Source of the DNA: a virus
IMG/VR virus record: IMGVR_UViG_3300045988_023006
Span: 1 to 41,499 of that record
Length of the DNA stretch: 41,499 bases
Strand: one strand, 5' to 3'
Of the stretch, positions 4,606 to 28,569 are shown piece after piece. The translations under genes and the position numbers were made by a program. Position 1 is the stretch's first letter; each line of letters opens with the position of its first letter. Under the pieces are notes generated by a model. It saw only the letters and a program-made list of their open reading frames with translations, was not told the DNA's origin and searched no databases.

Positions 4606-4647
4606 AGGCATATTTGCCCTTTATGTCCATGAAGGTAAAATATGCCT
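4606..4647. other. Candidate attP core: 42-bp near-perfect dyad around a central TC
   Basis: AGGCATATTTGCCCTTTATG-TC-CATGAAGGTAAAATATGCCT. By hand count 17 of 20 positions are symmetric, and the outer 10 bp are perfect. It abuts the integrase stop codon. Confidence 0.35.
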
Positions 4648-5944
4648 AACGCGGTGTTACAAAAAACGCGCCATCGTTGTCTGCATCAATCCGCCTGATG
4701 AAGCGCGTCCAAAATTCCTTTTTTTCGTTCCGCGAGTATGTATCATATTCGCCCAGCCCATCTTTTAATGCGTCAAGGTCTGTCTCTGGCTTTTCCTCCA
4801 CGGTTTCCAGTGCCCTTTTCAAACTCGCGTATTCCGCTTTATAATCGCCAAGCTCAATCAGATCGTTTAGGTATAGCGTTTTTAGCTTGCTCATTTTCTT
4901 TCGTATCGAGTCCGCGCTGTGCGTGGGCTTTTTTTCTGCCTTTTTATAGTACCGATTGTTCCGTTCTGCGATTCCCTCCATCTCGTGTAGTAGGTAGTCT
5001 TCCAGCGCATCTTCTCGGATCCTTTTTGTATGCGGGCAAGCGGAGTTGTCAAACATCCGCGTCCGGCATCGGTAGTATGTATATGTTTTTTTTACGGTTT
5101 CCGATTGCATCGTTTTCCCGCACTCTTTGCAGCGCAATATCCCGGAAAACAGATACACGCGATCCGTGCCAACTCCCGCACAGCGTTGTGACCGCTGGCG
5201 AATAATATCATTTACAAGGTCAAAGTCCTGTTTGCTCACCAGCGCGGGACAGGCATTTTCGATGCCGTACACCTCCCCGATGTAAAGACGGTTCCGGAAA
5301 TAGTTTACATACTTGTTATAAGCCCGGTCAATTCCCCATGTATCAAGCATATATCGCTTTACGGCAAGGACGCTTTTTAGCCGGATAAACGCGGCAAACA
5401 TATCTCGCGCCGCATCTGCCGTGCCGTTATCAATCTGGTATTGCCTGTCCTTGATGGCATAACCTAACGGTGCTTTTGAGCCTGCCGGCTGCCCTTTTGC
5501 CCGTTTCCCATCATTGATAAATTTGATTCGTTCGCTTGTGCGGTCGGCCTCATCTTGCGCAACGGAAAGCATGATATTGACCTTTAATCGCCCGGACGCG
5601 GTGCGCGTCTCGTAGTCCTCTTCCGTCGCTTGCCATGTTACGCCGTATCGGTCGAGCTGCGTTTGCACGTCATAATACCCCGCGACATTGCGGAACCAGC
5701 GGTCAAGCTTAATAAATAGAATCGTGTCTACCTTCCCCGCTTTGCAATCGCCCAGCAGCCGCAGGAGCGCCGGACGTTTTTTATACGGCTTTCGCGCGGA
5801 TATTCCCGCGTCCTCATAGATACCCGCCACGGTCATTTTGTGTTCTTGGGCATATCTTGTCAGCGCATCTCTTTGCTCTTGCAATGACAGGCCATGCCGC
5901 GCCTGTTCGTCGCTCGACACGCGGATATACAGTGCTGCTCTCAT
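4646..5944 (-). CDS. int: Large serine recombinase (phage integrase)
   Basis: 432 aa from ATG 5944 (MRAALYIRVSSDEQ.. is the resolvase catalytic Ser motif). Recombinase domain and Cys-rich zinc-ribbon (..CKECGK..YYRC..). The ATG overlaps the upstream stop (ATGA). Confidence 0.9.
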   Translation of the reverse strand: MRAALYIRVSSDEQARHGLSLQEQRDALTRYAQEHKMTVAGIYEDAGISARKPYKKRPALLRLLGDCKAGKVDTILFIKLDRWFRNVAGYYDVQTQLDRYGVTWQATEEDYETRTASGRLKVNIMLSVAQDEADRTSERIKFINDGKRAKGQPAGSKAPLGYAIKDRQYQIDNGTADAARDMFAAFIRLKSVLAVKRYMLDTWGIDRAYNKYVNYFRNRLYIGEVYGIENACPALVSKQDFDLVNDIIRQRSQRCAGVGTDRVYLFSGILRCKECGKTMQSETVKKTYTYYRCRTRMFDNSACPHTKRIREDALEDYLLHEMEGIAERNNRYYKKAEKKPTHSADSIRKKMSKLKTLYLNDLIELGDYKAEYASLKRALETVEEKPETDLDALKDGLGEYDTYSRNEKKEFWTRFIRRIDADNDGAFFVTPR

Positions 5945-6360
5945 CACCGCCCCCTCCAAAATCCGTAATCTGCGCAATGCAAATCGACATACACGCACCA
6001 CGCGGTCAGTAACACCACCACCACAAATAAAATAAAAATCACGGCGTTGCGGATATGGACACCACGCCGCATAATCTCGATCATGTCTTCCTTTGCGTCA
6101 ACATGGCGCTCCAGCTCGTCGTTTCGCGCCTGCAAGGTCTCCTCGTTCCTTGTCAGCCGTTCGGAAATTCCGAACACCTCGTCAAGTGAGATCCCAAGCG
6201 CCTTGCAGATAGGCGCGACGGTGTAAATAGACGGGGCTTTGGAAAACTTTGAAAAGAAGTTCTGCACGGTGGACAGCGGCACGCCGGAAGTGTCTGAAAT
6301 TTCCTGATAGGTCAGTTTCAATTCTTCTTTGCGGATTTTGCACACCTCTTGGATGTTCAT
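5944..6360 (-). CDS. Membrane-anchored XRE-family HTH protein, translationally coupled to the integrase
   Basis: 138 aa. N-terminal HTH (LTYQEISDTSGVPLSTVQNFF), coiled-coil linker, C-terminal TM helix (AVIFILFVVVVLLTAWCVYV). Confidence 0.75.
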   Translation of the reverse strand: MNIQEVCKIRKEELKLTYQEISDTSGVPLSTVQNFFSKFSKAPSIYTVAPICKALGISLDEVFGISERLTRNEETLQARNDELERHVDAKEDMIEIMRRGVHIRNAVIFILFVVVVLLTAWCVYVDLHCADYGFWRGR

Positions 6361-20597: not shown

Positions 20598-20860
20598 AGG
20601 TACAGTGGATGATAGGACATGGTCATTCACGCGATTTCCCAATCATCACTTTTCCTCCCTTCTGTGCGCCGCCGGTATCGGGCGCACCTTACGGCACCGA
20701 AAGGTCATACCGGCACAAACAGCCTGTAGGGAAACCTATGGGCTGTTGTTATATGCCGTGCGCTCGTTGCACCCCGCGATCCGGGGCGGGAGGTCGCACC
20801 TCCCACACGGCACCAACAGGACCCCTCGCACCTCTCAACGATGTGACCCAGAGGGGACAT
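20598..20860 (+). ncRNA. Highly structured non-coding leader / candidate cis-regulatory RNA with a tRNA-like acceptor/T-arm minihelix
   Basis: Contains several strong helices, including a 13-bp GAAA-capped hairpin (20718-47). The element at 20755-20815 ends in an unpaired A plus CCA. ACGGCACC motifs recur. An anti-SD CCCCTC (20822-27) faces GAGGGG (20851-56). The overlapping ORF translation is P/C/R-rich junk. Confidence 0.5.
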
Positions 20861-21718
20861 ATGCGGTATAGGTGCCCCGTAAGGGGAGACCTCAGCACGT
20901 CAGTGGTAGAGGACAACTACGATCCTGTTTTACCGGCAGAGCCGAAGAGCAAACTGGGCGATGTGTACCAGCTTGGAGACCATCGCCTTATGTGCGGAGA
21001 TAGCACGTCTTTGGCAGACGTACAGAAGCTCTTGGGGGGGGCACAAATGGATTTGCTGCTCACAGACCCCCCGTACAATGTGGACTATCAGGGCACCGCC
21101 GGGAAGATTAAGAACGACAATATGGAGGATACGGCCTTCAGGCGTTTCCTGACGGATGCTTTCTCCAATGCGGCGATGGTCATGAAGCCCGGTGCTCCGT
21201 TCTACATCTGGCATGCAGACAGCGAGGGGTATAACTTCCGAGGCGCGTGCAGAGATGCGATGCTGCGTGTCCGGCAGTGCCTGATCTGGGTGAAAAACTC
21301 CCTTGTTATGGGGAGACAGGATTTCCAGTGGAAACATGAGCCTTGCCTGTATGGTGAGAGCGAGATTGAAGAGGAAGCGCATGAACCTTGTCTATACGGA
21401 TGGACGGAAGGCAAGAAGCACTATTTCTTCAAGAACCGCAGGCAGACAACTGTGCTGAATTTCGATAAGCCTGTCAAGTCTGCGGAGCATCCGACCATGA
21501 AGCCGATTAAGCTGTTTGATTACCAGATGCAGTGCTCCAGTAAGCCGGGTGAGAATGTTCTCGACCTGTTCGCTGGATCTGGAACAACGATCATGGCAGC
21601 GGAGCAGAATGGCAGACACGCTTTCTGCATGGAGTATGACCCGAAGTATGCCGATGTCATTATTGATCGATGGGAAAAGTTTACCGGAGAAAAGGCGGTA
21701 CTTCTGCATGACGATTGA
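20861..21718 (+). CDS. DNA methyltransferase, N6_N4_Mtase family
   Basis: About 285 aa from ATG 20861 (the start is uncertain; GTG 20903 is an alternative). ..GDVYQLGDHRLMCGDST.., LLTDPPYNV, ..EHPTMKPIKLF.., LDLFAGSGTT. Confidence 0.8.
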   Translation: MRYRCPVRGDLSTSVVEDNYDPVLPAEPKSKLGDVYQLGDHRLMCGDSTSLADVQKLLGGAQMDLLLTDPPYNVDYQGTAGKIKNDNMEDTAFRRFLTDAFSNAAMVMKPGAPFYIWHADSEGYNFRGACRDAMLRVRQCLIWVKNSLVMGRQDFQWKHEPCLYGESEIEEEAHEPCLYGWTEGKKHYFFKNRRQTTVLNFDKPVKSAEHPTMKPIKLFDYQMQCSSKPGENVLDLFAGSGTTIMAAEQNGRHAFCMEYDPKYADVIIDRWEKFTGEKAVLLHDD

Positions 21719-21813: not shown

Positions 21814-22182
21814 ATGGCAAGGCCAAGAAAGGAAATAGACCAGAAGCAGTTCGAAAACCTCTGCGGCCTGCAATGCACGCTTGAAGAGATCTGCGGCTGG
21901 TTTGGTGTGACCGATAAAACATTGGATAGTTGGTGTAAACGCACCTATCATGCCAGTTTTTCCGAGGTATTTAAGCAAAAGCGAGGAGCGGGGAAAATTT
22001 CGCTGCGGAGAAGTCAGTGGCAGCTTGCGGCAAAGAACGCAAGCATGGCAATTTGGCTGGGGAAACAGTACCTTGGGCAGCGCGATATTGTTGAGCTGGG
22101 TTTGCCGGCAGACAACACGCAGGAGGACGCTTTGAGCGTGAGCCTGCGTGAAATGGCAGAAGGGTTGGAGAGCGATGATTAG
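21814..22182 (+). CDS. terS: Terminase small subunit
   Basis: 122 aa with RBS GGAGGG. N-terminal HTH (..LEEICGWFGVTDKTLDSWCKR..). Lies immediately upstream of TerL. Confidence 0.7.
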   Translation: MARPRKEIDQKQFENLCGLQCTLEEICGWFGVTDKTLDSWCKRTYHASFSEVFKQKRGAGKISLRRSQWQLAAKNASMAIWLGKQYLGQRDIVELGLPADNTQEDALSVSLREMAEGLESDD

Positions 22183-23404
22183 CCCGAAGCAGCAGAAAAT
22201 CCTTGCTTTCCCCTATTCCAAGTATGATGCACTGATCTGCGACGGTGCTGTGCGTTCCGGCAAGACTTCCATCATGATGTGGGCGTTCGTCCGCTGGGCG
22301 ATGGAGAATTTCAGCGGTCAGCGCTTCGGTGTGTGTGGCCGCACGGTGGATAGCTGCACCAAGAACATCATCGTGCCGTTTACGGCGATGAGCTTGGCAA
22401 AGGAGCGCTATATCATCCGCTGGCGGCGCGGCGACAAGGTAATGGAAGTGCGGCGCGGAGCCGTGACGAATTACTTTGAAGTGTTCGGTGGAAAGGACGA
22501 GGCAAGCTATACGCTGATCCAAGGCCGCACGCTGGCGGGGGTGCTGCTGGACGAGGTGGTGCTGATGCCGCGCTCGTTTGTGGAACAGGCATTGACCCGC
22601 TGTTCAGTAGACGGCGCAAAGCTGTGGTTTTCCTGCAACCCGGGGAGCCCACAGCACTGGTTTTATACAGAGTGGATCAAGCGGCACAAAGAGCGCAACG
22701 CTCTGTATCTGCACTTTGAGATGACGGACAACCCCGGCCTGAGCGAAAAGACGCTGGAGCGCTACCAGAACATGTTTACCGGTGTGTTCTACGACCGATA
22801 TATCCGTGGATTGTGGGTGCTGGCCGAGGGTCTGGTATACGACTTTGGCGAGGAAAACATCGTGGACGATGTGCCGGAGAGCGGGGAATATTACATTTCC
22901 TGCGACTACGGCACGCTGAACCCATTTTCTGCTGGTTTGTGGTGCTGGGACGGCAAGACGGCCACCCGCATCCGGGAGTATTACTACTCCGGGCGGGAAG
23001 AACACAGAAACAAGACTGACGAGGAATATTATACGGAGTTGGAGAAGCTGGTGGGAGAGCTGCCGGTGATAAGCGTCATCGTGGACCCGTCGGCGGCGTC
23101 CTTCATCGAGGTTATCAAGCGGCACGGGAAGTTCAAGGTGCGCAAGGCGGTCAATGACGTGCTGCCGGGCATCGCCACCACGGCGAGGTATCTGCGCAGC
23201 GGTGCGCTGAAGATACACAGGTCGTGTAAAGACGCCATTCGGGAATTCGGCCTCTACCGCTGGGACGAAAAATCCACAGAGGACAGGCCAATTAAGGAGA
23301 ACGACCACGCGATGGATGATACACGTTACTTTGCAATGACAGTATTGCGCCGGAAAGTGCGGGATGATAACGGGGAGAAATACATCCCCCTGTGGGAGAG
23401 GTGA
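22175..23404 (+). CDS. terL: Terminase large subunit (PBSX/Terminase_3-like)
   Basis: 409 aa from ATG 22175. Walker A ..CDGAVRSGKTS.., a Walker B-like LLDEV, and a C-terminal nuclease region with DHAMDDTRY. Confidence 0.9.
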   Translation: MISPKQQKILAFPYSKYDALICDGAVRSGKTSIMMWAFVRWAMENFSGQRFGVCGRTVDSCTKNIIVPFTAMSLAKERYIIRWRRGDKVMEVRRGAVTNYFEVFGGKDEASYTLIQGRTLAGVLLDEVVLMPRSFVEQALTRCSVDGAKLWFSCNPGSPQHWFYTEWIKRHKERNALYLHFEMTDNPGLSEKTLERYQNMFTGVFYDRYIRGLWVLAEGLVYDFGEENIVDDVPESGEYYISCDYGTLNPFSAGLWCWDGKTATRIREYYYSGREEHRNKTDEEYYTELEKLVGELPVISVIVDPSAASFIEVIKRHGKFKVRKAVNDVLPGIATTARYLRSGALKIHRSCKDAIREFGLYRWDEKSTEDRPIKENDHAMDDTRYFAMTVLRRKVRDDNGEKYIPLWER

Positions 23405-23408
23405 TAGC

Positions 23409-24749
23409 TTGCTGACATATCAGGACTTGCTCGCCGTGGGCGAGAACGAACAGGACCGAATGGATTTTATCCGGCGGGTCATCAATGAGCACAAAGGCTC
23501 TGCGGCTTACCGGTTCGCGGTAGACGCACAGCGATATTACGACGGCGAGAATCCCACCATCAGCCGGTATGAGAAGATCATCTATGACCTTCAGGGACGC
23601 GCCCACCGGGACATGTACACGGCAAACCACAAACTCATGTCAAGTTTCTTTGGATTTGTCGTGCGGCAGGAGGCAAACTATCTGCTGGGCAACGGCGTGA
23701 CCTTTCAGAAGAGGGAGACAAAGGCCAGACTGGGCGCTGACTTTGACCAGCGGGTCAAGGACGCAGGCAAGAGCGCCCTGGTATGCGGCGTGGCGTTCGG
23801 GTTCTTCAACCTGGACCGGGTTCAGGTGTTCGAGCTGACCGAGTTTGCGCCCCTTTACGACGAGGAAAACGGTGCCTTGATGGCCGGTGTGCGGTTCTGG
23901 CAAGTGGCAGACGATAAGCCGCTTCGTGCCACGCTGTACGAGCTGGACGGATACACCGAGTACATCCAGCGCAGCGGGGAGAACATGACCGTGCTGACGG
24001 ACAAACAACGGTACAAGGTCAATGTCCGCACGGACGGCCTGGGCGCGGAGACCATTCTGGACGGTGACAATTATCCTGGATTTCCGATTGTCCCTCTGAA
24101 AAACGGCAAAAACTGCCGGTCGGAGCTGCGGGGACGGCGGAACACCGTGGACGCGCTGGACCTGGTCTGCTCCAACATGGTAAACAACGTGGACGAGGGC
24201 AACCTCATCTATTGGGTGCTGACCAATGCGGGCGGCATGAATGACTTGGACGACGTGAAGTTTTTGGAGCGTATCAAGACCCTCCACGTGGCCCACACCG
24301 ATGACGAAGTGAACGCAGAGCCGCACACCATCGAGGCCCCCTTTGAGGGCACTAACGCAACCATTGACATGCTCAAGCGCAAGCTGTACGAGGATTTTCA
24401 GGCGTTTGACAGCGCCGCCGTGAGCGCAGGCAATCAGACGGCCACGGCCATCAAGGCCAGCTATGTGCCGCTGGACCTGAAAGTTGACGACTTCGAAAGC
24501 GACGTCACCGATTTTATCCAAGGCATCCTGGCGCTGGCCGGGGCGGACGATACGCCCAGCTATACCCGCAGCCAGATTATCAATAAGCCCGAAGAAACCC
24601 AGACCGTTCTGATGGGCGCGGAATACTACGATGATGAGTACATCACCAAGAAGTTGCTAACCATCAATGGTGACATTGACCAGTACGAGGACATGGCAAA
24701 GCGGAAGGCGGCAGAAGAGATTGACCGGAGCCAAATGGAGGTGGAATGA
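23409..24749 (+). CDS. Portal protein (SPP1 gp6-like)
   Basis: About 446 aa from TTG 23409 (RBS GGAGAGGTG). Supported by size, its position after TerL, and an acidic C-terminus. Confidence 0.8.
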   Translation: MLTYQDLLAVGENEQDRMDFIRRVINEHKGSAAYRFAVDAQRYYDGENPTISRYEKIIYDLQGRAHRDMYTANHKLMSSFFGFVVRQEANYLLGNGVTFQKRETKARLGADFDQRVKDAGKSALVCGVAFGFFNLDRVQVFELTEFAPLYDEENGALMAGVRFWQVADDKPLRATLYELDGYTEYIQRSGENMTVLTDKQRYKVNVRTDGLGAETILDGDNYPGFPIVPLKNGKNCRSELRGRRNTVDALDLVCSNMVNNVDEGNLIYWVLTNAGGMNDLDDVKFLERIKTLHVAHTDDEVNAEPHTIEAPFEGTNATIDMLKRKLYEDFQAFDSAAVSAGNQTATAIKASYVPLDLKVDDFESDVTDFIQGILALAGADDTPSYTRSQIINKPEETQTVLMGAEYYDDEYITKKLLTINGDIDQYEDMAKRKAAEEIDRSQMEVE

Positions 24750-25030
24750 TGGGAGCAATATCTAAGATTGCTGAAAAGTGCATGGCGTGCCCCAACGTTG
24801 ATAAATGCTCTCACAAGCGGATGGAGGCATGCGCCAATTACGAGCATAGGAATATGGCCGAATCACTAGCGATGCCATCAAAATCAGATATGGCAGCCAC
24901 CGTTCTCCGCGAAACGGTCAATACGATTGTCGATGGGCAGGTTGTGAAGGTTTACAAGGACGAGATTGAAAAAACACTATATAAGCACTTGTATGATGGC
25001 TTGGGTTGCGGATTTATCAATGGCGCATAG
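24746..25030 (+). CDS. Hypothetical protein
   Basis: 94 aa, between the portal and MuF genes. Confidence 0.5.
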   Translation: MMGAISKIAEKCMACPNVDKCSHKRMEACANYEHRNMAESLAMPSKSDMAATVLRETVNTIVDGQVVKVYKDEIEKTLYKHLYDGLGCGFINGA

Positions 25031-25041
25031 GGTGGCGAGAT

Positions 25042-26559
25042 ATGGCGAAAACGGACGAAGGCCACAAGCTGACCGACAAGGAGCTTTCGAAGCTGGAGCG
25101 GCGCATTACGAAACTTTACCGCGAAGCCGGGAAGGAATTGCAAGGAACCATCGACGCATATTTTGAGCAATTTAAAAAGCGCGATGAGGAAATGAAAGCG
25201 CTGATCGGCACGGTGCAGAACGGCAAGGAGTGGACGGAGGCCGACTATAAGCAATGGCGGCTCAATCAGATCGGTCGAGGGGAACGCTATCAGGCCATGC
25301 GCGACAAGGTGGCGCACCGCGTCACCGATGCGAACGCCGTGGCGGTGTCCTACACCAACGATGCAACGCCCGGTATCTACTCACTGAACCGCAACTATGC
25401 GGCGTACACCATCGAGAGCGTGGCTGGGGATGTAGGCTTTGATCTGTGGGACGAGCAGACGGTGAAGCGCCTGGTTGTGGAGCAGCCGGGGCTGATGCCG
25501 TATTACCCCAAAAATAGAGCATTGAAACGCGGCATTGCCCTTGCGTATGGCAAGAAGCAAATCACGGCCAGCGTCACCAGCTCCATCTTGCAGGGGAAAA
25601 GCATCAAGCACATGGCGGACGACCTGCAAAAACGTATCACCACCATGAGCCGCAATAGCGCTATCCGCACCGCGAGAACCGCCGTCACCGGCGCACAGAA
25701 CGCCGGACGCATGGACAGCTACGCAGCGGCGGAGAAAATTGGCATCAAGCTCAAAAAACAATGGCTGGCCACGCTGGACAACCGGACGCGGCATTCACAC
25801 GCCATGCTGGACGGCGAAAAGGTAGATCAAGATAAGAAATTCTCCAACGGCTGCCGCTTTCCGGGCGATCCGCAGGGGCCAGCGTGGGAGATCTACAACT
25901 GCCGCTGCACGCTTGTTGCGGATGTGGATGGGGTAGATACCTCCACAGGGCAAAGACGCGCCAAAAACCCCGTTACAGGCGAAACAGAGGTTATTTCTGA
26001 CATGACCTATTCCGAGTGGGCGGAGCAGAAGCAAGCGGAAGACGCTGCGGCCTGGAATACATACATGAAGAAGGGCCGCAACCTTTCCACTGATACAAAA
26101 CAGTGGCAGGAATACAAATCGGTTCTGGGAAACAAAGTTCCAAACACGGTTGAGAAGTTCCAGAATTTGAAGTATAATGAACCTGATAAGTGGGCCCAAC
26201 TGAAAACCATGAAACGGCAAACCGTTTTTGTGAATAACGCCGAATGTGTGACAACGCCTAAAAAATACACCGGGTATTTCCTGAAAGATGGCGCAAAACA
26301 CGCGGATCAATTTTTTGATGTTGGCTATACAGCGGATAACCCATTGCAGCTGCGTTATGATATGGCACGGCAGTTTGATATGAGCAAGGCTGTTGATGTG
26401 CAGGAGTTAAATGGCGGTGCGATAATGTTTAATATCTACATGACACTTGGAGTTACAAAACAGCGCACTTTTTTAACGGGATGGATTCAAGATACACCGG
26501 ATAGCAAACCGAGGATCGTAACCGGATTCAGAAAAAACAAGGAGAATTCGCATGATTAA
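25042..26559 (+). CDS. Minor head protein, Phage_Mu_F / SPP1 gp7 family, with a ~210-aa C-terminal extension
   Basis: 505 aa from ATG 25042. MuF hallmark ..NRTRHSHAMLDGEKV..FPGDPQGPAWEIYNCRCTL... An extra linker plus compact domain follows after roughly nt 25915. Confidence 0.85.
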   Translation: MAKTDEGHKLTDKELSKLERRITKLYREAGKELQGTIDAYFEQFKKRDEEMKALIGTVQNGKEWTEADYKQWRLNQIGRGERYQAMRDKVAHRVTDANAVAVSYTNDATPGIYSLNRNYAAYTIESVAGDVGFDLWDEQTVKRLVVEQPGLMPYYPKNRALKRGIALAYGKKQITASVTSSILQGKSIKHMADDLQKRITTMSRNSAIRTARTAVTGAQNAGRMDSYAAAEKIGIKLKKQWLATLDNRTRHSHAMLDGEKVDQDKKFSNGCRFPGDPQGPAWEIYNCRCTLVADVDGVDTSTGQRRAKNPVTGETEVISDMTYSEWAEQKQAEDAAAWNTYMKKGRNLSTDTKQWQEYKSVLGNKVPNTVEKFQNLKYNEPDKWAQLKTMKRQTVFVNNAECVTTPKKYTGYFLKDGAKHADQFFDVGYTADNPLQLRYDMARQFDMSKAVDVQELNGGAIMFNIYMTLGVTKQRTFLTGWIQDTPDSKPRIVTGFRKNKENSHD

Positions 26560-26707
26560 CGAATATGACCGTGTAAAAATCATTGAGACAGGCGATGTCG
26601 GTATTGTTGTTGATATCCGGGAGACCAACGGCACGTTTTGTCTTGTTGAACGAGACGGTGACAATGAACTATTCGACTGCGCTGAAAGCGAACTGGAAAA
26701 ACTATGA
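26552..26707 (+). CDS. 51-aa SH3-like small protein (not in ORF track), candidate immunity partner of the MuF C-terminal domain
   Basis: ATG 26552 lies 6 nt after AAGGAGA and overlaps the MuF stop. Its own stop overlaps the next ATG. Product MINEYDRVKIIETGDVGIVVDIRETNGTFCLVERDGDNELFDCAESELEKL. Confidence 0.55.
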   Translation: MINEYDRVKIIETGDVGIVVDIRETNGTFCLVERDGDNELFDCAESELEKL

Positions 26708-27102
26708 AAGTTGATTTCACAGACAACTCCAAAGAAGTCCTCGCTGCCATGCATGAGGCCGCTGCCAGGGCGCTGGAAAAGTGCGGGCTGGTTGCAGAGG
26801 GCTATGCGAAAAAGCTCTGCCCCGTGGACACCGGTAATCTGCGCAACAGCATTACCCATACGGTAGACGAGCAGGAACCGGCAGCGATCATCGGGACAAA
26901 CAATGAATATGCCGCGTATGTGGAATTAGGTACCGGCAAATACGCGGAGGGCGGACGGCCGACGCCGTGGGTGTATCAGGACGCAAAAGGAAACTGGCAC
27001 ATGACCCACGGACAGCGGGCGCAGCCGTTTTTGAAACCTGCTGTTGCCGACCATGCCGCGCAGTATCGGGACATTTTGGAAAGTGAGCTGAAAAATGGAT
27101 GA
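26704..27102 (+). CDS. HK97 gp10-family protein
   Basis: 132 aa. ..PVDTGNLRNSI..YAAYVELGT..AQPFLKPA.. matches gp10-family motifs. Confidence 0.6.
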   Translation: MKVDFTDNSKEVLAAMHEAAARALEKCGLVAEGYAKKLCPVDTGNLRNSITHTVDEQEPAAIIGTNNEYAAYVELGTGKYAEGGRPTPWVYQDAKGNWHMTHGQRAQPFLKPAVADHAAQYRDILESELKNG

Positions 27103-27394
27103 GAATACAAGAAAAGCGATACACAATTTATCGGAAGAAATTGAACGGTTTGGAAGCGTTTTGTCCGAAGCTCTGATTGAAGCGGTGAATGCTCTTCGTG
27201 ACGCCTTTCCCGAATTCAAGGATGGTTGCGAAAACATCGTTGCTGGATTAGCGGGCTTTGTTGATAAAGCCATGAAAGCGATTCGAAATAGAGAAAGAGA
27301 GCGCAGAAAGTGGAGAAAAGCGCCTAACGCTCCCATTTTCCAATTGCTGCTGGATAAAAGAAAGAGGGTGCATCGGTGCAGGAACAACTGTTGA
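27095..27394 (+). CDS. Hypothetical protein
   Basis: 99 aa, helical with a basic tail. Confidence 0.5.
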   Translation: MDENTRKAIHNLSEEIERFGSVLSEALIEAVNALRDAFPEFKDGCENIVAGLAGFVDKAMKAIRNRERERRKWRKAPNAPIFQLLLDKRKRVHRCRNNC

Positions 27395-27528
27395 CACCGA
27401 AAAAAGTTGAGGATATCGAGTCCGTGCTGGCCAAGGGCGACCGGGTGGAGCTGATACCAGTCAAAGACGGCGTAAAAGTTATAAAAATAAAACGGGAGGA
27501 GATAAGGAAAATTGGAAAGAGAGTGTAG
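27376..27528 (+). CDS. Possible 50-aa protein (not in ORF track)
   Basis: GTG 27376 after AAGAGGGTG. Product VQEQLLTPKKVEDIESVLAKGDRVELIPVKDGVKVIKIKREEIRKIGKRV. Confidence 0.35.
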   Translation: MQEQLLTPKKVEDIESVLAKGDRVELIPVKDGVKVIKIKREEIRKIGKRV

Positions 27529-27787
27529 TAGATTAATGTGCCCATTGCAAGACAATACTATGAATACATCAGATTGTCAGTGCACCGACACTTGCGAATG
27601 GTTTACTCCTAAGTTAATTCTCTGTTCATTCTGCAATACATTCCAGGCAACACAAGAAATAAGCGGGAAGCCAGTTTGCGGATTCTGTAAAACACAGATT
27701 GATATGAACAATCAATTATCAAAATTGCGGCAAGAAATTGATACAGGATTTAAAATACTGGAAAAGCAAATTTCATATAAACTTTAA
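27512..27787 (+). CDS. Cys-rich zinc-ribbon / coiled-coil protein in an AT-rich islet
   Basis: 91 aa (the start may be an internal Met). ..CSFCNTF..PVCGFCKTQ.. then a coiled coil. The gene is markedly AT-richer than its neighbours. Confidence 0.5.
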   Translation: MERECSRLMCPLQDNTMNTSDCQCTDTCEWFTPKLILCSFCNTFQATQEISGKPVCGFCKTQIDMNNQLSKLRQEIDTGFKILEKQISYKL

Positions 27788-27834
27788 AATAAATATCGTT
27801 TGGCGCTGATAAACGTTTCAGTGCAACGACCAAG

Positions 27835-27873
27835 CGGGGTCAGTTACCGAGGATTTCTCGGTGGCTGGCCCCG
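27835..27873 (+). promoter_or_regulatory. Long 17-bp hairpin upstream of the scaffold gene
   Basis: CGGGGTCAGTTACCGAG-gattt-CTCGGTGGCTGGCCCCG (includes G-T pairs). Followed by a weaker hairpin plus T-run and by TATACAAT. Confidence 0.5.
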
Positions 27874-27963
27874 TATATTTTCGATAAAACCCGCGAGGTA
27901 CAGCGGTTTTTATACAATCTATCGCCGCGACGAACTGCGGACGAAGGAAAGGAAGATAGAAAA

Positions 27964-28569
27964 ATGGCACTTACACGCAAACTTTTGAAGGGGATGGGTC
28001 TCACCGACGAACAGGTGGACACCATCATCGAAGCGCATACCGACACCGTGGACGGATTGAAGGCGGATGTGAGCCGTTACAAGGCGGACGCGGAGAAGTT
28101 GCCCACAGTCCAGAAGGAATTGGACGACCTGAAAGCCGCCGGGGACGGCGGTTACAAGGAGAAGTATGAGAAGGAGCACAAGGCCTTTGACGACTTCAAG
28201 GCGGACATCACCGCAAAGGAGACCAAGGCCGCCAAAGAAAAGGCGGTAAAAGCCTATTACGAAAGCAAGAACATCACCGGCGACAATCTAACTATTGCTC
28301 TGCGCGGCAGCGGCGCGGAGATCGACGGCGTGGAGCTGGACGGCGACAAGATCAAGGACACCGCCGCTCTGGATGCGCTTGTGAGCGGTGCTTTTGCAAA
28401 GCTGGTCTCCACTACCACCACGAAGGGTGCCAATATCGCAAACCCTCCGGCGGGCGGAAGCCCCGGCACGATGACGAAAGCGGACATCTACAAAAAGGAC
28501 GATCACGGCCACTATATGCTGTCCGCATCTGAGCGACAGAAAGCGCTTATGGAAAACCAAATTACTTAA
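27964..28569 (+). CDS. Scaffolding protein (Phage_GP20-like)
   Basis: 201 aa. K/E/D/A-rich and helical. Lies immediately upstream of the capsid gene. Confidence 0.7.
   Translation: MALTRKLLKGMGLTDEQVDTIIEAHTDTVDGLKADVSRYKADAEKLPTVQKELDDLKAAGDGGYKEKYEKEHKAFDDFKADITAKETKAAKEKAVKAYYESKNITGDNLTIALRGSGAEIDGVELDGDKIKDTAALDALVSGAFAKLVSTTTTKGANIANPPAGGSPGTMTKADIYKKDDHGHYMLSASERQKALMENQIT

What the first reader, a model, noticed from the sequence alone, without database searches (positions are those of the whole stretch)
25915..26707. MuF head protein with an extra C-terminal domain plus an overlapping 51-aa ORF: putative virion-delivered polymorphic toxin/immunity pair
Seen:
- The MuF/SPP1-gp7 hallmark (..NRTRHSHAMLDGEKV..FPGDPQGPAWEIYNCRCTL..) ends near 25915, but the ORF runs ~210 more codons.
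- First comes a K/E/W-rich linker (..WQEYKSVLGNKVPNTVEKFQNLKYNEPDKWAQLK..).
- Then comes a compact ~120-aa domain (KKYTGYFLKDGAKHADQFFDVGYTADNPL...TFLTGWIQDTPDSKPRIVTGFR).
- Overlapping the stop is a 51-aa ORF absent from the track (MINEYDRVKIIETGDVGIVVDIRETNGTFCLVERDGDNELFDCAESELEKL). It has its own AAGGAGA RBS and looks like a small SH3-like barrel.

Established: MuF proteins of temperate Firmicutes phages form a polymorphic-toxin family with variable C-terminal toxin domains followed by a small immunity gene. gp7/MuF proteins are packaged in the capsid and ejected with the DNA.

Inference: the pair is a capsid-delivered effector plus a protector. From memory the two sequence patterns resemble the DUF6883 / DUF4926 families, neither of which has a known activity. 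I could not verify this.
Basis: partly seen in the sequence, partly recalled or inferred. Interest (0 to 1): 0.65.

Follow-up and report, generated by a model that had tools for sequence, protein, structure and literature searches.

The report
Phage head-protein RNase toxin with immunity gene
A temperate gut-bacterial phage carries, fused to its MuF minor head protein, a predicted RNA-cutting toxin domain followed by a tiny partner gene that probably neutralises it; this is a clear but ordinary example of an already described swappable phage toxin/immunity cassette.

Summary
ORF 25042-26559 (+) is a MuF/SPP1-gp7 minor head protein with a 214-residue C-terminal extension. A conserved 51-aa ORF (26552-26707) overlaps its stop by 8 nt and has its own RBS.

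The C-terminal domain is a DUF6883-type domain: 23-26 bits against a cutoff of 27, and close homologues carry PF21814. Its confident model (pLDDT 91) best matches the BECR tRNase toxin CdiA-CT Kp342. Invariant K, Y, H, R and T residues fit that enzyme's active-site set.

The 51-aa protein is predicted to be an SH3/KOW-like barrel and is under purifying selection. It does not reach Pfam DUF4926 at any usable threshold.

Among 80 viral contigs whose MuF core is 87-100% identical, at least 14 alternative C-termini diverge just after an MTYxEWA junction. Most extended types have their own small downstream ORF. MuFs without an extension abut the next gene directly.

The architecture is already published (Zhang 2012, Iyer 2017, Jamet 2017, and a 2026 preprint naming DUF6883 "BECR-Tox3"). 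It is a new member of a known kind. Toxicity, neutralisation and capsid delivery remain untested.

The parts
25042..26559 (+). MuF-toxin fusion gene (505 aa from ATG 25042; an upstream TTG at 25006 is also in frame)
   Evidence: ORF list and sequence. Pfam Phage_Mu_F plus DUF6883. PHROG 115 minor head protein, E 2.5e-44.
25558..25914 (+). MuF / SPP1-gp7 domain (aa 173-291)
   Evidence: PF04233 E 3.8e-18, 66.7 bits against a cutoff of 29.6. TIGR01641 43.3 bits against a cutoff of 39.65.
26002..26022 (+). Junction motif MTYSEWA: the last residues shared by all cassette types and the left recombination boundary
   Evidence: C-termini of 80 related MuFs diverge immediately after M[TS]Y[AS]EWA. Nucleotide homology to phages with other cassettes ends at window 26021-26041, or at 25944 in L038.
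26023..26190 (+). K/E/W-rich helical linker that travels with the DUF6883 domain
   Evidence: It is conserved with the toxin domain even on a different MuF scaffold (L013) and in the prophage remnant (L003). GC falls from about 57% to about 43% starting here.
26150..26178 (+). Sigma-70-like promoter match (TTGAGA-17-TATAAT, 11/12) inside the linker coding sequence; a possible internal promoter for the small ORF (hypothesis)
   Evidence: Found. It is the best or only >=9/12 match in the roughly 710-nt cassette in all 10 homologous loci, with the -10 hexamer TATAAT in 9 of 10. Function is not shown.
26191..26556 (+). C-terminal DUF6883 / BECR-fold domain, a predicted RNase toxin. The Pfam match covers nt 26245-26529.
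   Evidence: PF21814 at 26.1 bits, E 1e-5. AF2 pLDDT 91 with four helices followed by four strands. Foldseek top hit 6CP9 CdiA-CT Kp342, prob 1.0, TM 0.62. K25, Y29 and H37 are invariant and R108 and T111 nearly so (numbering of the 122-aa query).
26539..26545 (+). Shine-Dalgarno AAGGAGA of the small ORF, 6 nt before its ATG
   Evidence: Read directly from the sequence.
26552..26707 (+). 51-aa SH3/KOW-like small ORF, the putative cognate immunity protein
   Evidence: Conserved gene calls P0034-P0039. AF2 best model pLDDT 92 with five strands, although only 1 of 5 models was confident. Foldseek matches SH3/KOW/Tudor barrels. dN/dS 0.12-0.22. It lies immediately after the toxin domain in all 11 comparison loci carrying it: L001, L003, L009-L016 and L041.
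26704..27102 (+). HK97-gp10-like / tail-completion gene: the right flank of the cassette, not part of it
   Evidence: PF04883 E 2.5e-10 and PHROG 5. In short-MuF phages this gene overlaps the MuF stop directly.

Best explanation
The locus is a toxin/immunity cassette inserted at a recombination hot spot. The hot spot lies between the MuF minor-head-protein core and the gp10-like gene of a temperate siphovirus-type phage of gut Clostridia (Oscillospiraceae-like hosts).

Shown here:
- The MuF core is fused, through a conserved MTYSEWA junction and a helical linker, to a DUF6883-type domain.
- That domain is confidently predicted to have a BECR (Barnase/EndoU/Colicin/RelE) fold.
- The 51-aa gene that follows is translationally coupled to it. 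It is conserved and is gained, lost or exchanged together with the toxin domain.

Inferred:
- The domain is a metal-independent endoribonuclease. Its nearest solved relative cuts the acceptor stem of uncharged tRNA-Ile, so it is most likely a tRNase. Catalysis would use the K-Y-T triad plus His and Arg.
- The SH3-like 51-aa protein binds the domain and blocks it in the producing cell, so late phage protein synthesis is not poisoned.
- The MuF part anchors the fusion to the portal inside the capsid, as SPP1 gp7 does, so the toxin enters the next cell with the DNA.
- There the toxin either damps host translation or defence, or harms cells that lack the immunity gene.
- A conserved promoter-like site inside the linker coding sequence may let lysogens make the immunity protein constitutively (hypothesis).
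For: - Domains: PF04233, plus PF21814 just under its cutoff. Homologues at 59-85% identity are annotated PF21814.
- Fold: AF2 model pLDDT 91. Best PDB match is CdiA-CT Kp342, 6CP9 (prob 1.0, TM 0.62). Best viral matches are the C-termini of 'minor capsid proteins'.
- Active site: K25-x3-Y29-x7-H37 are invariant, and R108-x2-T111 are nearly so (absent only from one truncated homologue). They sit in the N-terminal helices and the last strand. This is the same residue set and placement as Kp342 K157/Y160/H170/R252/T255 (PMC9086364). It also fits Iyer's His-in-helix plus C-terminal Thr rule for phage BECR domains (PMC5512222).
- Cassette behaviour: 80 contigs with a near-identical MuF core carry at least 14 C-terminal types. 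Short MuFs have no extra ORF, and most extended types have their own type-specific small ORF. L038 is 99% identical in the flanks yet carries another cassette. GC drops across 26000-26700.
- Portability: the same linker and toxin occur on a different MuF (L013). The toxin plus partner also occur behind a non-MuF head-module carrier (L016).
- Partner gene: it is conserved with dN/dS 0.12-0.22. Toxin and partner identities co-vary (Mantel r 0.50, p 0.001). In-frame toxin-partner fusions, P0013 and P0146, act as Rosetta-stone evidence for interaction.
- Temperate phage: large serine recombinase at 4646-6001.
- Literature: the DUF6883 / MuF / downstream small-gene architecture has been described.
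Against: - No experiment exists on this domain family. RNase activity, target, toxicity, binding and packaging are all inferred.
- The Pfam DUF6883 score is slightly below the gathering threshold.
- Correspondence of the catalytic residues rests on sequence pattern and secondary-structure position. No structural superposition could be inspected.
- The partner is not a detectable DUF4926. Its model was confident in only one of five AF2 runs.
- Toxin/partner co-variation is also expected from simple genetic linkage.
- In-frame toxin-immunity fusions are awkward for a delivered toxin, because it would arrive with its inhibitor attached.
- Some extended cassette types (535 and 548 aa, metallopeptidase-like) have no partner ORF. 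Not every extension in this slot therefore behaves as a classical toxin.
Confidence: 0.78

Rival explanations
1. Same molecules, different role. The fusion is a 'polyvalent protein'-type early effector (Iyer 2017). It is injected to cut host or defence RNAs, such as tRNAs, mRNAs or CRISPR RNAs, for the benefit of the infecting phage. It is not a weapon between bacteria. The small protein merely keeps it silent during assembly.
For: - The alternative cassettes at the same slot are typical polyvalent-protein domains: ADP-ribosyltransferases, zincin-like HExxH peptidases and nucleases.
- BFVD fold matches include a metallopeptidase-linked copy and polyvalent-protein entries.
- Iyer et al. place PBECR-MuF fusions in this class.
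- The partner gene is translationally coupled to late genes.
Against: - Nothing here distinguishes the two roles.
- Retention of toxin plus partner in a decayed prophage fits a role for the bacterium as well.
- So does a conserved internal promoter-like site that could give lysogens immunity.
Confidence: 0.35
2. The toxin domain plus the 51-aa gene act mainly as a selfish toxin-antitoxin-like (addiction or abortive-infection) module. It happens to reside in the MuF gene and is expressed from the internal promoter in lysogens.
For: - The module persists without the MuF core in a prophage remnant seen on 22 contigs.
- A promoter-like site is conserved in 10 of 10 loci just upstream of the domain.
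- Fused toxin-partner forms recall fused TA systems.
Against: - No conserved start codon or RBS exists for a free toxin domain downstream of the promoter-like site. Met 26209 is not conserved.
- In 19 of the 80 viral contigs, and in most of the genome loci, the domain is in frame with MuF.
- The remnant may simply be decay in progress.
Confidence: 0.12
3. The 51-aa protein is not an inhibitor. It is an adaptor or targeting subunit, since SH3/KOW-like barrels often bind ribosomes, RNA or RNA polymerase. Alternatively it is a small head or neck structural protein.
For: - Fold matches are to KOW, Tudor and MutS2-SH3 domains that dock onto ribosomes or polymerases.
- In-frame fusion to the toxin in two lineages is easier to explain for a cofactor than for an inhibitor.
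Against: - The ORF is absent from closely related phages with short MuFs, so it is not structurally required.
- It is replaced by unrelated small ORFs whenever the toxin type changes, which is the pattern expected of cognate immunity genes.
- It follows the toxin into a non-MuF context.
Confidence: 0.1
4. The C-terminal domain is a catalytically inert RNA- or DNA-binding or structural extension of the head protein. Iyer et al. proposed this for the inactive PBECR domain of phage Mu gpF.
For: Inactive BECR domains fused to MuF exist. The Pfam score is sub-threshold.
Against: - K, Y and H are invariant and R and T nearly so across homologues down to 47% identity.
- The domain is dispensable and is swapped for enzymes in sibling phages.
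- A dedicated partner gene accompanies it.
Confidence: 0.05

Closest known systems
MuF polymorphic toxins of temperate phages (Jamet et al. 2017, PMC5576092; earlier noted by Zhang et al. 2012)
   Same: N-terminal MuF domain in the packaging/head module. Variable C-terminal toxin domain. A small ORF (<150 aa) immediately downstream. Temperate Firmicute gut phage. Nucleases are the commonest toxin class.
   Different: Jamet's text names cd13442, Ntox50 and EndoU_bacteria as example toxin domains; neither DUF6883 nor DUF4258 appears there. Here the polymorphism is resolved within one near-clonal phage population: at least 14 cassette types behind one junction motif.
BECR-Tox3 / DUF6883 with downstream DUF4926 (bioRxiv 10.64898/2026.08.28.747851)
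   Same: A DUF6883-type domain at the C-terminus of a Phage_Mu_F protein, followed by a conserved small gene. Assigned to the colicin-like BECR RNase branch.
   Different: The window's domain scores just under the Pfam threshold. The downstream 51-aa protein is not detectable as DUF4926. It belongs to an unannotated SH3-like family with short (51-52 aa) and long (60-68 aa) forms.
CdiA-CT/CdiI of Klebsiella pneumoniae 342 (PDB 6CP9) and E. coli 3006 (6CP8)
   Same: 6CP9 is the best structural match. Both have helices followed by a four-stranded sheet. The same residue set is present (Lys, Tyr, His, Arg, Thr) with the R-x2-T spacing. Both are toxin domains at the C-terminus of a delivery protein with an adjacent immunity gene.
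   Different: 14-18% sequence identity. Delivery is by a phage head protein rather than a type V secretion filament. The immunity protein here is a 51-aa five-strand barrel, whereas CdiI-Kp342 is listed with one helix and nine strands. Substrate and EF-Tu dependence are unknown here.
PBECR-MuF fusions among polyvalent proteins (Iyer et al. 2017, PMC5512222)
   Same: A phage BECR RNase domain fused to MuF. It is predicted to be packaged and injected. It has the His in an N-terminal helix plus a C-terminal Thr/Ser signature.
   Different: This is a simple two-domain protein rather than a large multi-effector protein. It has a dedicated partner gene, which the polyvalent-protein model does not require.
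Apk2 MuF toxins with IapK/Aph1 immunity (PMC12226406)
   Same: The only experimentally validated MuF toxins. The C-terminal domain is toxic in E. coli, and a downstream protein neutralises it by binding.
   Different: The activity is different ((p)ppApp synthetase rather than a predicted RNase). There are two immunity genes, whereas here there is one.

Membership tests
MuF / SPP1 gp7 minor head protein (PF04233, TIGR01641) | Match to the family HMM above the curated cutoff | tested here: met
   PF04233 66.7 bits against 29.6. TIGR01641 43.3 bits against 39.65.
MuF / SPP1 gp7 minor head protein (PF04233, TIGR01641) | Position in the head/packaging module after terminase and portal | tested here: met
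   The order terminase large subunit 22148-23404, portal 23364-24749, MuF 25042-26559 is read from the ORFs. The terminase and portal identities come from synteny with the Pfam-labelled and annotated genes of L001, L007 and L008; these two window ORFs were not themselves scanned.
MuF / SPP1 gp7 minor head protein (PF04233, TIGR01641) | Packaged in the capsid via the portal and released on ejection | not testable with these tools
   Known for SPP1 gp7 from the literature (cited). Needs virion proteomics.
MuF polymorphic toxin (Jamet 2017) | C-terminal extension carrying a toxin-type domain | tested here: met
   A 214-aa extension ending in a DUF6883 / BECR-fold domain.
MuF polymorphic toxin (Jamet 2017) | C-terminus variable among proteins that share the N-terminal domain | tested here: met
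   At least 14 C-terminal types among 80 contigs with an 87-100% identical core. L038 has 99% identical flanks and a different cassette.
MuF polymorphic toxin (Jamet 2017) | Small ORF immediately downstream, linked to the presence of the toxin domain | tested here: met
   The 51-aa ORF overlaps the toxin stop. It is absent from short-MuF phages and is type-specific in most other cassettes.
MuF polymorphic toxin (Jamet 2017) | Encoded by a temperate phage or prophage | tested here: met
   Large serine recombinase (Resolvase + Zn_ribbon_recom) at 4646-6001. Related copies lie inside bacterial MAG contigs.
MuF polymorphic toxin (Jamet 2017) | Toxicity of the C-terminal domain and neutralisation by the downstream protein | not testable with these tools
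   Requires expression and rescue assays.
DUF6883 (PF21814) = BECR-Tox3 | Pfam score at or above the gathering threshold (27 bits) | tested here: inconclusive
   23.0, 24.6 and 26.1 bits depending on the fragment. Homologues at 47-85% identity are annotated PF21814.3.
DUF6883 (PF21814) = BECR-Tox3 | BECR alpha/beta fold: N-terminal helices followed by a four-stranded antiparallel sheet | tested here: met
   AF2 elements H2-16, H23-30, H38-43, H51-61, E68-72, E78-86, E92-100, E108-114 at pLDDT 91. Foldseek match to 6CP9, prob 1.0.
DUF6883 (PF21814) = BECR-Tox3 | Conserved downstream DUF4926 partner, as stated in the preprint | tested here: not met
   A conserved partner exists but it is not DUF4926 by HMM.
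DUF4926 (PF16277), for the 51-aa ORF | Match to the family HMM | tested here: not met
   No hit for the window ORF at E<=10. Four of 50 family members give weak hits, best E 0.0013, none near the 29.1-bit cutoff. None of 73 relatives is annotated PF16277. A profile-profile test against a genuine DUF4926 alignment could not be run.
Kp342/EC3006-type BECR tRNase (PDB 6CP9 / 6CP8) | Lys-Tyr-Thr triad plus essential His and Arg | tested here: inconclusive
   K25, Y29 and H37 are invariant and R108 and T111 nearly so, in matching secondary-structure elements. Compare K157/Y160/H170/R252/T255. No residue-level superposition was available.
Kp342/EC3006-type BECR tRNase (PDB 6CP9 / 6CP8) | Cleavage of the tRNA-Ile(GAU) acceptor stem; EF-Tu/EF-Ts/GTP dependence (Kp342) | not testable with these tools
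   Biochemistry is needed.

The most novel reading that the evidence does not exclude
Three linked claims go beyond what is published.

1. The 51-aa protein founds a previously undescribed SH3-like immunity family for DUF6883/BECR-Tox3 toxins. It is distinct from DUF4926 and has short and long forms that track toxin subtypes.
2. It is expressed in lysogens from a conserved promoter embedded in the toxin's own linker codons (the ...LKYN... motif encodes TATAAT). This would parallel the constitutive internal immunity promoters recalled from the literature for nuclease-colicin operons (not checked here).
3. A single gut phage population keeps at least 14 interchangeable effector/immunity cassettes at one junction. 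That makes it a natural system for measuring the population dynamics of virion-delivered toxins.
Probability: 0.3. Interest if true: 0.5.

Novelty: new member of a known kind. Interest (0 to 1): 0.3.

Why it matters
MuF toxins are abundant in human-gut Firmicute phages, but only the (p)ppApp-synthetase type has been tested experimentally.

This locus offers a compact RNase-type example of about 115 aa with a 51-aa partner. The catalytic residues are clearly predicted. Natural negative controls exist: sibling phages with no cassette or with another cassette in 99%-identical flanks. That makes toxicity, rescue and virion-delivery experiments easy to design.

Scientifically it adds detail rather than a new principle. 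The architecture and its interpretation are already in the literature.

Tried and rejected
- PADLOC gave no hit for any of the three proteins. NCBIfam added nothing beyond the gp7 domain apart from spurious OXA beta-lactamase matches far below cutoff.
- A sequence-profile search of the toxin alignment against PDB chains found nothing meaningful; the best E was 0.23. Only fold comparison links the domain to 6CP9.
- I tried to obtain a genuine DUF4926 sequence for a profile-profile test. Accession PV491271 (Enterococcus phage, PMC12590732) is not in the phage collection. The syntenic 75-aa protein of the related phage LG62 turned out to be DUF4314-like, not DUF4926, and hhalign against the family profile gave 0.9% probability. 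This was a dead end, so a remote DUF4926 relationship remains open.
- The idea that homologues of 100-214 aa represent free-standing toxin genes was mostly rejected. Many lie on contigs under 2 kb or begin at internal Met codons of MuF fusions. The exceptions are the prophage remnant L003-L006 and the non-MuF carrier in L016.
- The overall promoter and terminator counts in 25000-28000 are no higher than in shuffled sequence. Only the conservation of one site is notable.
Full report
**1. Observation**

The + strand ORF running from 25006 (TTG) or 25042 (ATG) to 26559 encodes a 505-aa protein, counted from the ATG.
- Pfam Phage_Mu_F covers aa 173-291, i.e. nt 25558-25914 (66.7 bits, cutoff 29.6). 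TIGR01641 phageSPP1_gp7 also passes its cutoff. PHROG 115 'minor head protein' matches at E 2.5e-44.
- A 51-aa ORF (26552-26707) starts inside the last codons of the MuF gene (ATGATTAA, 8-nt overlap). AAGGAGA lies 6 nt upstream of its ATG.
- That ORF ends in ATGA, which overlaps the start of an HK97-gp10-like / tail-completion gene at 26704-27102. The three genes therefore form a translationally coupled chain.

**2. The C-terminal domain**

*Family.* Pfam DUF6883 (PF21814) matches aa 402-496 at 23-26.1 bits (E 1e-4 to 1e-5). This is just under the 27-bit cutoff. Thirty-three close homologues (47-100% identity) were found in the 5.8-billion-protein collection, and many carry PF21814.3 in precomputed annotation.

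*Conserved residues.* An alignment of 19 homologues shows invariant C19, K25, Y29, F30, L31, H37, F41, F42 and others. P107, R108, I109, T111 and R114 are nearly invariant (numbering of the 122-aa query window:26191-26556).

*Fold.* AlphaFold2 on this alignment gave pLDDT 91 and pTM 0.81, with four helices followed by a four-stranded sheet.
- Foldseek against the PDB gave chains of 6CP9 as the only convincing match (prob 1.0, TM 0.62-0.65, 14-18% identity). [quoted passage not shown]
- Against predicted viral structures, the best matches are the C-terminal parts of 473-497-aa 'minor capsid proteins' and a metallopeptidase-linked copy.

*What 6CP9 is.* CdiA-CT Kp342 is a BECR-fold tRNase that cleaves the acceptor stem of uncharged tRNA-Ile(GAU). 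Its active site is K157, Y160, H170, R252, T255, described as a Lys-Tyr-Thr triad plus His and Arg. It needs EF-Tu, EF-Ts and GTP (PMC9086364).

*Inference on catalysis.* The window's K25-x3-Y29-x7-H37 lies in the N-terminal helices. R108-x2-T111 lies in the last strand. This reproduces the Kp342 residue set and its placement. It also fits the 'His in an N-terminal helix, Thr/Ser near the C-terminus' rule that Iyer et al. give for phage BECR domains. No residue-level superposition could be inspected, so the correspondence is inference.

*Literature.* A 2026 preprint independently renames DUF6883 'BECR-Tox3' and places it in the colicin-like BECR branch. It notes frequent fusion to Phage_Mu_F and a conserved downstream small gene, which it calls DUF4926.

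**3. The 51-aa ORF**

*It is a real gene.*
- It is called at 75-98% identity in other assemblies.
- A profile of seven members found 57 cluster representatives at E<=1e-3 among 1.8 billion proteins. Nearly all are 50-70 aa.
- Pairwise dN/dS is 0.12-0.22 where dS is not saturated.

*Fold.* The best AF2 model (pLDDT 92) is a five-stranded barrel. Four of the five models were poor, so the fold rests on one model plus weak HMM hints. Foldseek matches KOW, Tudor and SH3-like barrels. Weak sub-threshold Pfam hits go to SH3-like families: MSSS, NifZ and DUF2098.

*It is not demonstrably DUF4926.*
- The window ORF has no hit even at E<=10.
- Only 4 of 50 family members give weak DUF4926 hits, the best at E 0.0013.
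- None of 73 relatives in the large collection is annotated PF16277.

I could not obtain a genuine DUF4926 alignment for a profile-profile test. A remote relationship is therefore neither shown nor excluded.

**4. Linkage of the two genes**

In all 11 comparison loci that carry the toxin domain, the small ORF follows immediately. It either overlaps the toxin stop or starts within a few bases of it. The loci are eight genome loci from gut Clostridia/Oscillospiraceae MAGs plus L001, L003 and L041.
- A short form (51-54 aa) and a long form (60-68 aa, with an insertion of the type ...EKGVPGGWG...) track toxin subtypes.
- Pairwise identities of toxin and partner correlate (Mantel r 0.50, p 0.001). 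Physical linkage alone would also produce some correlation.
- In L013 the same linker and toxin sit on a clearly different MuF N-terminus.
- In L016 the toxin is on a 158-aa protein that begins MRFNPYHDPSNGQF. The upstream 507-aa ORF, which I take to be prohead-protease-like, repeats that motif. The 60-aa partner follows the toxin, and then comes a 387-aa ORF I take to be the major capsid protein. Both gene identities in L016 are my reading of the sequences, not scanned.
- Two lineages have the toxin and partner fused in frame: P0013 in L001 and P0146. This is Rosetta-stone evidence for interaction, but it is awkward for a simple 'delivered toxin' picture.
- A decayed prophage seen on 22 contigs retains only linker, toxin, partner, gp10-like and scaffold genes next to host glycoside-hydrolase and ABC-transporter genes.

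**5.

Using MuF residues 1-330 as query, 422 related stretches were found in IMG/VR. The best 80 (87-100% identical in the core) were fetched.

Extending each ORF shows that the proteins are colinear up to the motif M[TS]Y[AS]EWA and then diverge completely. The types are:
- DUF6883: 19 contigs.
- Two ADP-ribosyltransferase types, both PF03496 (E 4e-16 and 1.5e-32).
- Six different HExxH metallopeptidase-like tails.
- A CdiA_C-like nuclease type.
- Two HNHP-motif types.
- A helical 454-aa type.
- No extension at all (335-339 aa in the viral contigs; 326 aa in Dulem virus 33).

The region downstream behaves as expected for cognate partners:
- In the short MuFs the stop overlaps the gp10-like start (gap of -4 or +2 nt), so there is no extra ORF.
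- Most extended types have their own unrelated small ORF of 34-102 aa.
- The 535- and 548-aa metallopeptidase-like types have none.
- Flavonifractor phage Chenonceau has a weak DUF4258-like tail followed by a 69-aa ORF.
- Dulem virus 33 has a short MuF directly followed by the gp10-like gene.

Nucleotide comparison places the left boundary at window 26021-26041 and the right boundary at 26703-26772. L038 is 99% identical on both flanks but carries a different cassette. GC falls from about 57% to about 42% across 26000-26700.

The C-terminus is therefore not a conserved structural part of MuF. It is an exchangeable cassette that includes the small ORF.

**6. Context**

- The window encodes a large serine recombinase (4646-6001, minus strand).
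- It encodes an Amidase_3+SPOR endolysin (172-855).
- It encodes a DNA methylase (20609-21718).
- ORFs at 22148-23404 and 23364-24749 correspond by synteny to the terminase large subunit and portal genes of related loci.
- Downstream structural ORFs follow; they were not examined.

I read this as a temperate siphovirus-like phage of about 41 kb; the recombinase supports the temperate part, while the morphotype is inferred from relatives and not tested. Relatives come from human and animal gut Clostridia.

**7. Mechanism**

Shown: the domain architecture, the predicted fold, the conserved residues, the coupling of the two genes, and the cassette behaviour.

Inferred:
- The domain is a metal-independent endoRNase, most plausibly a tRNase.
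- The 51-aa barrel binds and blocks it in the producer cell.
- MuF carries the fusion into the capsid through the portal, as SPP1 gp7 does, and it enters the next cell with the DNA. This follows the literature cited.

Two biological roles remain open and are not mutually exclusive. One is an inter-bacterial or lysogeny-modulating toxin (Jamet 2017). The other is an early anti-host or anti-defence effector (Iyer 2017).

One extra lead concerns a sigma-70-like site at 26150-26178 (TTGAGA-17-TATAAT, 11/12).
- It is the best or only match of at least 9/12 within the cassette in all 10 homologous loci examined.
- The -10 hexamer is formed by the Tyr-Asn codons of the conserved LKYN motif and is TATAAT in 9 of 10 loci.
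- Elsewhere in the cassettes TAT is used for 71% of Tyr codons and AAT for 63% of Asn codons.
- If functional, the site would give lysogens constitutive immunity. This would parallel the internal immunity promoters I recall for nuclease-colicin operons. That parallel is from memory and was not checked here.

**8. Comparison and novelty**

The locus meets every computationally testable criterion of a MuF polymorphic toxin. It fits the published DUF6883/BECR-Tox3 description, except that the partner is not detectable as DUF4926.

It works like CdiA-CT/CdiI Kp342 at the level of fold and probable chemistry. It is not a member of that system, because the delivery route differs and the immunity proteins are unrelated.

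Experimentally, only Apk2-type MuF toxins have been validated. I rate this locus a new member of a known kind, of modest interest.

The points that go beyond the literature are:
- the separate SH3-like partner family;
- the conserved internal promoter-like site;
- the in-frame toxin-partner fusions;
- the fine-scale picture of at least 14 cassettes exchanged behind one junction motif in a near-clonal phage population.

Noticed in passing
window 26150-26178 (+); homologous positions in L001, L003, L009, L011-L015, L041: A sigma-70-like promoter match (TTGAGA-17-TATAAT, 11/12) lies inside the linker coding sequence. It is the best or only >=9/12 match within the roughly 710-nt cassette in all 10 loci. 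The -10 hexamer is built from the Tyr-Asn codons of the conserved LKYN motif. It may be an internal promoter for the immunity gene in lysogens.
   Followed up: partly
L017-L096 (IMG/VR contigs, mostly from dataset 3300045988); junction at window 26002-26041: Eighty viral contigs with an 87-100% identical MuF core carry at least 14 alternative C-terminal cassettes after the motif M[TS]Y[AS]EWA. These include two ADP-ribosyltransferase types, six HExxH peptidase-like tails, a CdiA_C-like nuclease, two HNHP-motif types, and no extension. L038 has 99% identical flanks and a different cassette.
   Followed up: yes
L042 and L050-type loci (MuF of 535 and 548 aa): Two metallopeptidase-like extension types have no partner ORF: the MuF stop overlaps the gp10-like start. 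The CdiA_C-like nuclease type (489-493 aa) has a 110-157 nt gap with no convincing ORF of 30 aa or more. Not all cassettes at this slot fit the toxin-plus-immunity pattern.
   Followed up: no
L001 5960-6645 (also L002); protein P0146: In L001 the MuF reading frame breaks at an A8 run, splitting MuF from the linker and toxin. The toxin domain there is fused in frame to the small SH3-like domain (214-aa product P0013). P0146 shows an independent in-frame fusion. These could be assembly errors, slippage sites or genuine fused toxin-immunity proteins.
   Followed up: partly
L003-L006 (6001-6676) and L010: This is a prophage remnant. The terminase, portal and MuF core are replaced by host glycoside-hydrolase and ABC-transporter genes. 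The linker plus DUF6883 domain (175 aa), the 51-aa ORF and the gp10-like and scaffold genes persist. It was seen on 22 contigs from several human gut samples.
   Followed up: partly
L016 644-4167: The DUF6883 domain sits on a 158-aa protein that begins MRFNPYHDPSNGQF. The upstream 507-aa ORF, which looks prohead-protease-like, repeats that motif (LRYNPYHDPSNGRF). The 60-aa partner follows the toxin, and then comes a 387-aa ORF that looks like a major capsid protein (neither identity was scanned). The NPYHD..G.F motif may be an alternative capsid-targeting tag.
   Followed up: no
window 27103-27841: This is a second low-GC (32-49%) variable slot between the gp10-like gene and the scaffold gene. 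It holds small ORFs at 27095-27394, 27376-27528 and 27512-27787 (Cys-rich), and ends with a strong terminator-like hairpin at 27834-27874. Homology to sibling phages breaks here as well.
   Followed up: no
window 24746-25030 (+): A 94-aa Cys-rich ORF between the portal and MuF genes has no Pfam match. It was not examined further.
   Followed up: no
L007 3961-4508 (Flavonifractor phage Chenonceau): The MuF of this cultured phage (annotated only as 'head morphogenesis') ends in a weak DUF4258-like tail (E 0.015), a family placed in the colicin-like BECR branch. A 69-aa acidic ORF follows. It is probably another unannotated MuF toxin/immunity pair in an isolated phage that could be tested directly.
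   Followed up: partly
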